DNA of 64,000 nucleotides, taken from assembly GCA_964016885.1 (NCBI GenBank), contig OZ024742.1, positions 64,232,001 through 64,296,000 on the forward strand. The letters run 5' to 3'. The notes beneath the pieces are model-generated. The model made no database searches. It saw nothing but the letters and a program-made list of their open reading frames with translations, and was not told the DNA's origin. Positions 55,101 through 58,100 of the stretch are shown one piece after another. This DNA comes from Eledone cirrhosa (lineage: Eukaryota). Numbering within the stretch: position 1 is the first letter of the stretch; every line of letters starts with the position of its first letter. The position numbers were made by a program, and so were the translations under genes.

Positions 55101-58100
55101 AATTAGATGTATCTCACTCAATTATTCTGAGATGGGGGAAGAGAGTGGAGGAGAGAGAGAAATTGAGAAAAAACACAAACACACACAGACAGATTCTCAA
55201 ACAGATGAGCATACATCATATATATATATACATATGGAGGCACATGGCTTAGTGGTTAGAGCATTGGCCTTGCAATCGAAAGGTTGTGAGTTCAATTCTC
55301 TCCTTGAGCAAGACACTTTATTTCACTCAGCTGTAGAAATGAGATGATAGGGACTGGGGTCCATATCATTCCACTGCAAAGTGGTCGTGCAGGTGACACG
55401 GCAAAAAAGCACCCAGCACTCACTGTAAATGAGGTTGGTGTTAAGAAAGGCATCCAGCTGTAGAAATCAAGCCAGAATCAGTTCCCGTCCCACCCTTGCA
55501 AGCAGGGAAAAAGATGACGTAAAATGAAATGATGATGAATGATGATATACATACACACCGTAAACGTGGTTGGTGTTATAGGAAGGGCAATCAGCCGTAG
55601 AAAACCTGCCAGACAGTCCCATACGAGCAAGACAACCAATCTTGCCTCAAGTGGGACAATTCCCATCTAAACTCATACTAGCGTGGAAGATAGACGTTAA
55701 ACGAGGATGATGATGATGATGATGAACACAGACTGTTTCCTCCTGTTTGTAGTCCATTGAAGTCGATGATGTTCTTCATGGCAGCCAGCAATGAGCACAC
55801 ATAAGGGTGAAAAGTCCAATACAGTACTCACAGACACAACTGCAGGTGTTGCACTGGTGGACCAGATGGTTGTTGCTGTTGTTGAGCTATGTACCCATCC
55901 TTGCTTGCCATGATCTAGTCAGAGTAAAGCTTAGACAGCTCAGGGAGATGCTGAATGGTAAGAGAGTACTAACTTTGTCAGTCTTGTATCTTCGCAGCTC
56001 AACAATGGAGTTTTGCAATGTTTCAGAGTTTTGAATCCCTTCTGCATACTTTGCACTTTTGCTCAACATGTAAGCTCATTGTAGAGAATGGATTTGGTGA
56101 GGATTACTTCCATTCTGGGCATTTTCATGATGTTCACAGACTTCCAGGTTCAATACTCTGTCTTACCAACCAACCTGAAGTATCTGATGAGGTGTTTTAA
56201 AGTGAAAGGACTGTAGCTGCAAGTGATGGCTGTGATGTACCATCCATGTCTCATTGCAGTAAGTGATGTTTGGCACTACCACTGCCTTGTACACAGAAAT
56301 TTGAACAAGAAGCTCACTTTCTTGAGCTTCTTGATCTTTCCTTTCAGTGCACCCCATGCTAGGCTCACAATGTGTATTCATCACTCAATTTCTTTATTGA
56401 GATATATTGCTTATCAAGGTATATAAAGTTTGCAACACATTCAACTGCTTGCTTACCTATTAAGATTTTGGGGTACTATCACTGCAGCATGCCTTGGTGC
56501 TTGGACAATAATTTTTGTTTTACGGCAAGACACTTAAGTTGTGCCATGAACATGACAACATCCCTGGTGTTGGTGATATACACAAACGAACCCAGTACAT
56601 GCTTTAAAGTGGTTGGAGATAGGTAGAAGGCTTGTGTACTCATTGTTTGCATTTGGGGAAGAGAATAGAGTTCCTACCTACACCTTTCCTACATACTGAG
56701 CAAGGCCATTTCCCTGAGGGGATCTGGGTTCTGTTTTCTCGTCTACTTACAAGGACTTTAGTCTTTGTCAGGTTGACTTTGAGACCCTTTCTTTCTAGTC
56801 CCTGCTTCCAAGTTTGGAATTTCTTCTCTAGTTCTACCATAGATTCAGCTATAAGTGCGAGGTCATCTGCATACAAGAGTTCCCATAGGCATCCGGTCTT
56901 AAACTCCTCTGTTATTGCCTGCAGCATTAACTTTGCTGACTGCTCCCCTATACATGGCTTGTACAGCTTTCACAAGCCAGTCATCTATTCCTATATATAT
57001 ATATATATATACGTTATTCCGGGTTGAATCGGAGGTAACCACAGTAAGTAAGGTACTCAATACATTGCAGAGTATAAAATTGAGATTCCTGATGATTTCT
57101 AAAGAATGAAACAGTTCTAGTCCTGTAGAATCTCATCTATATTAAAACATATATATATATATATATATATATATATATATATATACACACACACACTATG
57201 TACTCACCTTAATGGTCTGATAAGATCCACTGTACAGATGGTTGTTTGTAGCCACCAGTGCTCGGACCCAATGGTTTAGTCCTGTTATTTCTTTCTTCAG
57301 TTCATGTGTTTGTGCATCCCAAACCTGAACAAGACATAGCAGAACACATTCAGTGAAAAATTAGATTCCCTTTTAAGGCTGAACAAACACAAAGGGTTAA
57401 ACATAGGAGGGATTGGTTGGTTGCACTTGAAACACAGCAATATTATATACCATATAAACCCCTATGTGTCATATCTGTTTCTATGAAAATATGGCATGAA
57501 AAAAAAATGTGATTTTTCTACTGTACCTACAAAATCTCAATTCTAAATATATAGTACATTGTATGTAAAATGGAGGTGTAGCATTTACTGGACTTACAAA
57601 ATCTCAATTTAAAATATATGGTAGATTGTAAATAATGTATATAAATGGAAGAGTTGAATAAATTGACCCCAGTATTAAACTGGTTTGGCAGTATCGGTAG
57701 AGGGTCGGACGCTATGCTTTCCAGCATAGTTACGTCCCTTTACGATCTGAGTTCAAATCCCGCCGAGGTTGACTTTGCCTTTCATCCTTACGGGGTCGAT
57801 AAAATAAAGTACCAGTAATGCACTGGGTAATTGCTGGCCTTGTGCCTAAAGTAGAAACAATTATTTTATTGACTCTGGAAGGATGTGATTTGAATTCAGA
57901 ATGTAAAGAACCACAATAAATATCACCAGCCATTTTGACAGATGCTCTACTGATTCAGCTAATTCACTGTTTCTCTAACAGAGTTTAATAGCAACAGTAG
58001 CTTTATAATCATCATCATTATCATTTAACATGTTTTCCCTGCTAGCAAGGGTTGATCAGGACGTCTCTGAGTATGTTAGTCCCTAATTGGAGCTACTGAC

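What the first reader, a model, noticed from the sequence alone, without database searches (positions are those of the whole stretch)
57011..57148. 138-bp mini-element containing a complete hammerhead ribozyme, inserted in a TA tract 60 bp from a TRAF7 exon
The insert lies between two (TA)n runs. It contains a perfect 8-bp stem I (TGAGATTC/GAATCTCA), CUGAUGA, stem II TTCT/AGAA, GAAA, stem III CAG/CTG and a GUA triplet, with predicted cleavage after 57127. Its 5' half (ccgggttgaatc.gaggtaaccacagtaag..gtactcaatacatt) recurs inverted and TA-flanked at about 28293-28338 without the ribozyme, so it belongs to a dispersed family. It could be a solo Penelope pseudo-LTR or a non-autonomous retrozyme-like element.
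Basis: partly seen in the sequence, partly recalled or inferred. Interest (0 to 1): 0.75.

Follow-up and report, generated by a model that had tools for sequence, protein, structure and literature searches.

The report
Split Penelope leader copy with hammerhead
The self-cutting RNA motif is really there, but the insert is one of many thousands of short stumps of a known kind of jumping gene (a Penelope-like element) in an octopus genome; it is likely a dead copy of the first 134 bases of that element's RNA, and it is predicted not to cut the host gene's message because it faces the other way.

Summary
Observation confirmed with corrections. The insert (57012-57148) is not a free-standing mini-element. 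It is two pieces of a Penelope-like retroelement joined head to head in a TA tract: parent positions +67..+134 inverted, then +1..+66 (the hammerhead) forward. A full-length parent was found in the same genome (6.3-kb unit; open RT + GIY-YIG frame; Hydra-clade motifs); 13,756 exact matches to a tail 23-mer. The natural stem I is 6 bp. The ribozyme is antisense to the TRAF7 pre-mRNA and has lost its upstream promoter-like region. Known kind; this scan has reported similar octopus stumps before on other DNA. Two additions. (1) 5' ends pile up at the hammerhead's first base (39 of 58 tail arms; 23 of 30 arms in a sister family), 29-30 nt below a conserved TATA box, and not at the cleavage site: likely run-off copies from the transcription start, made on uncut RNA. 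(2) One insertion grew into a ~377-kb satellite of 78-bp hammerhead units, still attached to its Penelope arm, with no sign of selection on the catalytic core. No RNA data or cleavage assay was available.

The parts
56992..57011 (.). left (TA)n target tract; a target-site duplication cannot be read
57012..57079 (-). tail arm: parent positions +134 (57012) back to +67 (57079); ends where the other arm begins
   Evidence: 65 of 68 identical to parent L091
57080..57082 (.). 3-nt junction filler; two of the bases are complementary to +52/+53 and lengthen stem I from 6 to 8 bp
   Evidence: fold-back origin is inferred
57083..57148 (+). short arm: parent positions +1..+66, from the inferred transcription start to the inner reverse-transcription start
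   Evidence: 65 of 66 identical to parent L091
57083..57133 (+). type I hammerhead: stem I 57083-88/57128-33, CUGAUGA 57089-95, stem II 57097-99/57104-06, GAAA 57108-11, stem III 57111-14/57123-26 with 8-nt loop, predicted cut after 57127
57149..57184 (.). right (TA)n target tract
57208..57324 (-). TRAF7 WD40 exon; the insert lies in the intron after its donor site, antisense to the pre-mRNA (context, not part of the element)
56643..56969 (-). decayed LINE-type reverse transcriptase fragment flanking the TA tract (context)
   Evidence: Pfam RVT_1 E 3e-7
28293..28342 (+). tail-only stump of an older related subfamily in another TA tract

Best explanation
The insert is a short, inverted, two-armed copy of the hammerhead-bearing repeat of a Penelope-like retroelement whose full-length form lies elsewhere in this genome, and it was likely made when the element's enzyme cut a TA tract and copied only the first 134 bases of its own uncut RNA. 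Shown: the two arms are parent positions +67..+134 (inverted) and +1..+66; the parent has an open RT + GIY-YIG frame between direct repeats; copies have two fixed 3' ends (about +60..67 and +134) and 5' ends heaped at +1..+10. Inferred: the two 3' ends are the two internal reverse-transcription start sites known from Poseidon; each target strand primed one arm; the tail arm stopped at the inner start site and the inner arm ran off the RNA's 5' end; +1 is the transcription start (TATA box at -30). The copy lacks that promoter-like region and faces away from TRAF7, so it is predicted to be inert.
For: Natural order hammerhead-then-tail: 1,838 exact matches, seen in 30 of 30 loci fetched. Parent L091: direct repeats 6,279 bp apart, 729 sense codons without a stop; model pLDDT 92.6, best fold matches telomerase RT; 2 of 12 homologues scanned pass Pfam GIY-YIG. 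Window arms 65/66 and 65/68 identical to the parent. In the first 90 places on contig C1 (91 arms): 39 of 58 tail arms that reach +10 stop at -1..+10, against 5.6% expected from the rate at +11..+66; only 1 of 19 stops at -13..-2; 42 of 55 inverted arms stop there too; copies at least 94% identical give 22 of 33. Cleavage site not enriched: 4 of 77 against 2.8 expected. Sister family: 23 of 30 arms, with TATAAATA kept at -29. Arms include the AG at +1/+2, so the edge is not a splice acceptor. Two internal RT starts, extension of both strands and use of uncut RNA are shown in vitro for Poseidon (PMC11167929).
Against: No RNA evidence for a start at +1; the TATA and initiator motifs are short, lie in AT-rich DNA, and a second TATAAATA occurs at -153; the initiator match is 6 of 7 in the sister family. 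The one Penelope promoter tested in vivo is TATA-less and internal (PMC2377424). 5' ends are spread over about 10 nt, many at +4..+7, and junction microhomology blurs them. The sample is the first 90 places of one contig, not random, and arms of one insertion are not independent. P0001 itself has no Pfam RT or GIY-YIG hit and no PDB sequence hit. Among 30 of the 59 copies joined through stem I, 23 have the tail arm ending at the cut site and 6 the reverse, which leaves room for a small share of cleaved templates.
Confidence: 0.8

Rival explanations
1. Same Penelope origin, but the heap of 5' ends at +1 is a structural stop: the new cDNA snaps back on itself through the stem I complementarity, or the enzyme stalls at the ribozyme, and there is no transcription start there.
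For: Several junctions show a few bases templated by fold-back through stem I (window copy, L133, L157), and 59 copies are joined exactly through stem I. Self-priming has been proposed for Penelope palindromes (PMC3846280).
Against: Only 6 bp are complementary; by the time the enzyme reaches +6..+1 the partner strand is already copied, so a stall is expected at the 3' foot of a stem, not its 5' edge (inference). The edge is hard at +1 in two families that keep a TATA box at -29/-30 while the spacer diverges.
Confidence: 0.12
2. The insert is a self-propagating non-autonomous element (retrozyme or SINE-like monomer) with its own RNA circle.
For: Sharp, shared ends among the top 30 matches; the same hammerhead forms a 78-bp tandem array; pLTR-derived retrozymes are described (bioRxiv 10.64898/2026.07.22.740005).
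Against: The shared ends are the parent's two 3' ends; the inner junctions vary among copies; only 59 copies share the commonest stem I junction against 13,756 tail matches; no tandem of the 137-bp form was seen; half of it is antisense to the other half's strand.
Confidence: 0.04
3. The ribozyme has been co-opted to act on TRAF7 (cutting an antisense transcript, or changing splicing near the donor site).
For: 59 bases from a donor site; catalytic core intact; stem I lengthened to 8 bp.
Against: Antisense to the pre-mRNA; 130 of 134 bases match an intact parent, so the core is intact because the copy is young; the active fold holds about 0.1% of the computed ensemble; thousands of like copies are scattered, so some will lie near exons.
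Confidence: 0.04

Closest known systems
Hydra-clade EN+ Penelope-like elements, including Hydra-1_Obim of Octopus bimaculoides (Craig et al. 2021, PMC8557442; passages, section 11, supplement part 2 of 59)
   Same: C-terminal GIY-YIG, RW[K/R], DKT, CxCX5C linker, CxxC and CxH around E and N, (TA)n targets, sense hammerhead with CUGAUGAU...UGAA layout and ACAG/CUGU stem III as in several listed Hydra families.
   Different: A different family from Hydra-1_Obim by its hammerhead sequence; loop III is 8 nt, against 1-3 nt in the listed Hydra motifs; unit 6.3 kb because of a 3.3-kb TA/TG simple-repeat 3' region, where Hydra elements are generally under 3 kb; short copies number in the thousands.
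Inverted, tailed insertion units of Penelope/Poseidon (PMC11167929 parts 1-2 of 4; PMC3846280 passages)
   Same: Two 3' ends separated by a tail, head-to-head arms, AT-rich target, hammerhead upstream of the RT start sites, uncut RNA as template; a putative TATA plus initiator in a rotifer pLTR.
   Different: Tail about 68 nt instead of 30-40; the whole copy is only the leader; the 5' ends mark one fixed point, which I did not find described in the papers read.
Animal non-LTR retrozymes and hammerhead satellites (PMC7229834 passages; bioRxiv 10.64898/2026.07.22.740005 parts 1-3 of 5)
   Same: Type I hammerhead from a pLTR; the 78-bp array on contig C28 is head to tail with one hammerhead per unit.
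   Different: The window copy is no tandem unit. The array (about 4,800 units if continuous) far exceeds the 300-unit maximum reported in that preprint, is still joined to its parent insertion, and shows no excess conservation of the core, as expected for DNA-level expansion.
L1 twin priming and LTR strong-stop DNA (recalled, not from a call)
   Same: Two primers on one RNA give an inverted two-part copy; a start near the RNA 5' end gives a short run-off cDNA.
   Different: Here both starts are fixed internal sites and the run-off product is integrated directly.

Membership tests
EN+ Penelope-like element (parent family) | Single ORF with telomerase-like RT | tested here: met
   729 sense codons, YRDD invariant in 114 of 114 aligned; top 5 fold matches are TERT. 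No Pfam RT hit.
EN+ Penelope-like element (parent family) | C-terminal GIY-YIG endonuclease | tested here: met
   Y..YIG, R, H, E, N conserved in the alignment; 2 of 12 homologues pass Pfam GIY-YIG; P0001 itself does not.
EN+ Penelope-like element (parent family) | pLTR-ORF-pLTR tandem, inverted 5'-truncated arm, optional tail | tested here: met
   L091 direct repeats 6,279 bp apart; inverted arms in 55 of 91 sampled arms; tail of about 68 nt.
EN+ Penelope-like element (parent family) | Hammerhead in the pLTR, sense to the ORF | tested here: met
   hammerhead +1..+51, ATG at +182.
Hydra clade | RWK, DKT, no GxKF/Y | tested here: met
   RWR (K in 84, R in 30 of 114), DKT, no G.K[FY] match (definitions).
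Hydra clade | CxCX5C linker; CCHH absent; CxxC and CxH around E and N | tested here: met
   C582-N-C584-X5-C590; no CX2-5CxxC match; C605 is A in 99 of 114; C682xxC685, E688, N701, C710xH712.
Hydra clade | Insertion into (TA)n | tested here: met
   Window copy and 30 of 30 top loci have TA runs at or near both ends.
Hydra clade | Generally short (under 3 kb) | tested here: not met
   Unit 6.3 kb owing to a 3.3-kb simple-repeat region; the paper gives this as a tendency, not a diagnostic.
Hydra clade | Groups with named Hydra RTs in a tree | not tested
   No named Hydra proteins came back; clade rests on motifs.
Type I hammerhead ribozyme | Core CUGANGA, GAAA, UH and three helices | tested here: met
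   97.7% of 130 cells paired; one compensated pair that may be a single event.
Type I hammerhead ribozyme | Self-cleavage | not testable with these tools
   Active fold about 0.1% of the computed ensemble; U-U instead of G10.1-C11.1, as in listed Hydra motifs.
Non-LTR retrozyme (window copy) | Head-to-tail units, each with a hammerhead | tested here: not met
   Single split copy.
Non-LTR retrozyme (C28 array) | Head-to-tail units, each with a hammerhead | tested here: met
   Period 78, 128 copies in 10 kb; 699 of 1,366 sampled units keep core and stems.
Non-LTR retrozyme (C28 array) | Unit-length linear or circular RNA; dispersal by retrotransposition | tested here: inconclusive
   RNA not testable; among the first 100 of 1,918 junction matches only one other site (8 units on C1, not TA-flanked) appears.
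Solo pLTR | One complete repeat in one orientation | tested here: not met
   Only +1..+134, split and inverted.

The most novel reading that the evidence does not exclude
In this Hydra-type family the hammerhead is the first 51 nt of the mRNA. The thousands of stumps are then integrated run-off cDNAs, a genomic record of the transcription start and of the fact that the RNA is copied mostly before the ribozyme cuts; the ribozyme would act as a self-decapping switch on the mRNA (shutting off, circularising or re-routing translation) rather than as the maker of the template's end. One such insertion has grown into a 377-kb satellite of almost pure hammerhead, a retrozyme-like array caught still attached to its parent.
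Probability: 0.55. Interest if true: 0.58.

Novelty: new member of a known kind. Interest (0 to 1): 0.37.

Why it matters
The copy itself is ordinary transposon debris. Its family bears on an open question, what the hammerhead of Penelope-like elements is for (called unclear in PMC8557442). The insertion record says that templates were mostly uncut and began at the ribozyme's first base, which agrees with the in vitro Poseidon result and gives an exact, cheap prediction (5' ends at +1, few at +46). Because a young family with an open reading frame, a sister family and thousands of junctions are at hand, the test is direct. The 78-bp array shows at one locus the step from pLTR to ribozyme-bearing tandem repeat that has so far been argued from co-occurrence and trees.

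Tried and rejected
Rfam gathering and E-value scans: no hammerhead above chance. Minimum-energy folds do not give the hammerhead and are not better than shuffles (z -1.2 to -1.8). MITE reading of the 21-bp stem seen in many top matches: rejected, since the long stem is the inversion junction and only 59 exact copies carry it. Splice-acceptor reading of CCCAG|ATT at the start of stem I (precedent in D. virilis): no upstream exon found at junctions and arms contain the AG; an intron in some transcripts is not excluded. Cap-templated G at junctions: confounded by stem I fold-back, dropped. Cleavage site as main 5' end: not enriched. RNA: no RNA holder listed; two coded runs laid as contigs cannot show starts, strand or level; they gave the 77-nt 'goes back' joint that led to the array, and may be the assembly's own sample. 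A 78-base DNA search returned nothing (very common words are skipped), no evidence. Pfam and PDB sequence searches with P0001 found nothing relevant. Selection on the satellite's catalytic core: 11 core positions vary 2.5%, against 4.5% outside the ribozyme and 1.7-3.4% in loops, not significant (p 0.17). First alignment of variants had three wrong coordinates, redone. Two scripts stopped part-way; the missing parts were rerun, except the fold of a two-unit dimer. No sequence look-alike among earlier findings.

Full report
1. Observation. The insert lies at 57012-57148 between two (TA)n runs and holds the hammerhead motifs at the places given, with the predicted cut after 57127. Rfam does not recognise it and its minimum-energy fold is not the ribozyme. 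The neighbouring exon is 57208-57324 on the minus strand; its best named match by identity is Octopus vulgaris TRAF7-like (95%), and further WD40 exons lie downstream on the same strand. The hammerhead is on the plus strand, so the pre-mRNA carries its reverse complement. The left flank is a decayed LINE RT fragment. The copy at 28293-28342 is real and is a tail-only stump nearest to older subfamily copies.

2. The family. The genome (3.0 Gb, 1,796 contigs) gave 816 candidates, 40 scored at 89-100% identity. All 30 fetched sat at TA runs with the same outer ends but varied inner junctions. A second copy in L005 ran on past the right end into the reverse complement of the left half. That natural order, hammerhead then tail, has 1,838 exact matches. 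A tail 23-mer has 13,756 exact matches, control 0; this counts long and short copies and some related subfamilies.

3. The parent. Walking upstream led to L091: direct repeats 6,279 bp apart around a frame of 729 sense codons and a 3.3-kb TA/TG simple-repeat region. The tail runs straight into the ORF leader; ATG is at +182, taking the first A of natural stem I as +1. P0001 has 1,298 homologues among 7,997 candidates scored, a confident model whose best fold matches are telomerase RTs, and the motifs that PMC8557442 lists for the Hydra clade (section 11). It has no Pfam or PDB sequence hit of its own; 2 of 12 homologues pass GIY-YIG. No tree with named Hydra proteins was made. The paper's supplement lists an octopus Hydra family with a different hammerhead and shows the same CUGAUGAU...UGAA layout in many Hydra families (part 2 of 59 read; the other parts may hold closer sequences).

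4. Anatomy of the window copy. 57012-57079 is +134..+67 inverted (65 of 68 identical to L091), 57080-82 is filler, 57083-57148 is +1..+66 (65 of 66). Each base of +1..+134 is present once. Natural stem I is 6 bp; the window's 8 bp and the 21 bp in many top matches come from the junction. Stem II is 3 bp with a 4-nt loop. In 10 variants picked by hand from three subfamily types, core and stems II and III are invariant, loop II varies freely and stem I has one compensated pair, possibly a single event. In a nearest-neighbour model the active fold holds about 0.1% of the ensemble, less in the full leader; weak or protein-assisted cleavage is reported for other Penelope hammerheads (PMC4209133 parts 1-2 of 4; PMC11167929 parts 1-2 of 4).

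5. How the short copies arise. I mapped the first 90 of the 100 listed places (91 arms). 3' ends fall at about +131..+139 for most tail arms and mostly at +60..+67 for inverted arms (12 of 55 score +48 because their subfamily diverges beyond that point). This matches the two internal RT starts that bound the tail in Poseidon, where both target strands are extended. 5' ends heap at -1..+10: 39 of 58 tail arms that reach +10, against 5.6% expected; 22 of 33 after dropping three apparent duplicates and copies under 94% identity; 42 of 55 inverted arms; only 1 of 19 stops in the next 12 bases. Whole-genome counts agree: 14,060 matches for +2..+17 against 5,768 for -7..+13, or about 11,000 against 3,300 after removing the strand excess due to the array below. 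The cut site is not enriched (4 of 77, 2.8 expected). Copies joined exactly through stem I are rare (59); of the 30 fetched, 23 have the tail arm ending at the cut site, 6 the reverse, 1 other, which microhomology or a minority of cleaved templates could give. A sister family (3,093 matches) repeats the pattern: 23 of 30 arms end at -1..+9, 10 of them scored at +1; the script's 24th, L282, continues upstream after a deletion; 18 of the arms are 9 head-to-head pairs. TATAAATA lies at -30 in the parent and -29 in the sister family while the spacer diverges; the TATA and initiator consensus are recalled. The arms include the AG at +1/+2, which argues against a splice acceptor. I infer that +1 is the transcription start and that the stumps are run-off cDNAs primed at internal sites near the 5' end of uncut RNA; the window copy is the case in which the tail arm stopped at the inner start site, as in L1 twin priming (recalled). 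A putative TATA plus initiator was noted in a rotifer pLTR (PMC3846280 passages); the D. virilis promoter is TATA-less (PMC2377424 passages). No RNA data test this.

6. A satellite from the same ribozyme. The strand excess and a 77-nt back-jump in a public run led to 1,918 tandem junction matches, all on one strand. On contig C28 a 78-bp array runs from about 30,496,750 to 30,873,720, some 377 kb or 4,800 units if continuous; 18 stretches (1,366 units, about 28%) were read and all were array, and 5 stretches beyond held none. Its left edge is a normal insertion: TA run, inverted tail arm, then the first unit. 699 of 1,366 units keep core and stems; the core is not significantly more conserved than the rest (p 0.17) and there are weak higher-order periods, which fits DNA-level expansion. 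Retrozyme units of 51-972 bp and up to 300 repeats, derived from pLTRs, are reported (bioRxiv 10.64898/2026.07.22.740005, parts 1-3 of 5; its supplements could not be seen); 170-400 nt circles are typical (PMC7229834 passages).

7. Known or new. Hammerheads in pLTRs, inverted tailed insertions, TA targeting and Hydra elements in octopus are in print, and earlier notes of this scan describe like stumps and arrays (unchecked). Seven searches found no paper on this family, on 5' ends heaped at the ribozyme's first base, or on such an array; the library lacks most subscription papers. That 5'-UTR hammerheads can start cap-independent translation in fungal viruses (PMC13725137, abstract only) is a lead for what a leader ribozyme might do, not evidence here.

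8. Verdict. Real feature, new member of a known kind, likely inert at this site. Interest 0.37, carried by the run-off record and the satellite rather than by the copy beside TRAF7.

Noticed in passing
G000:C28:30,496,750-30,873,720 (L237, L238, L239-L248, L254-L259): About 377 kb of head-to-tail 78-bp units, each one hammerhead of this family (about -14..+64), growing out of an ordinary inverted insertion; half of the sampled units keep an intact core.
   Followed up: yes
L257:8735-10000 (C28, right edge of the array): The array ends inside a hammerhead core, where a different tandem repeat begins: 422-bp units with their own minimal hammerhead (palindromic CTAG helix III), a retrozyme-like family also seen in many other loci.
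   Followed up: partly
L236:4250-4840 (C1:350.2 Mb): Eight units of the same 78-bp repeat, cut at both ends and not flanked by TA runs; likely a stray piece of the C28 array.
   Followed up: partly
L098-L099 (C1:83.68-83.69 Mb): Tandem array of about 12 units of about 1.07 kb, each a full repeat with hammerhead and tail plus part of the simple-repeat region, next to an ORF-bearing copy.
   Followed up: partly
L091:1290-4560: The parent carries 3.3 kb of TA/TG/TATG simple repeats between ORF and 3' repeat, 2-3.5 kb in other copies; the element may spread the very microsatellites it targets.
   Followed up: partly
window 13900-14330: Another head-to-head insertion with a hammerhead on each arm (core at 14230 + and 13996 -), from a different TA-targeting family with a TATATA helix III.
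   Followed up: partly
flanks of L001-L225: At least five other hammerhead families occur in the flanks; one group keeps a GTA(T/C)GT donor-like word about 40 nt upstream of the core.
   Followed up: no
L095:1726-4632 (minus), L096:3623-4915: Other Penelope-like ORFs beside copies of this family: one long RT + GIY-YIG frame with an Asn-rich N-terminal stretch, and a second Hydra-type family.
   Followed up: no
window 40881-41380 (minus); 55240-55310: Mariner-type transposase fragments (Pfam Transposase_1) and a tRNA-like head, probably of a SINE.
   Followed up: no
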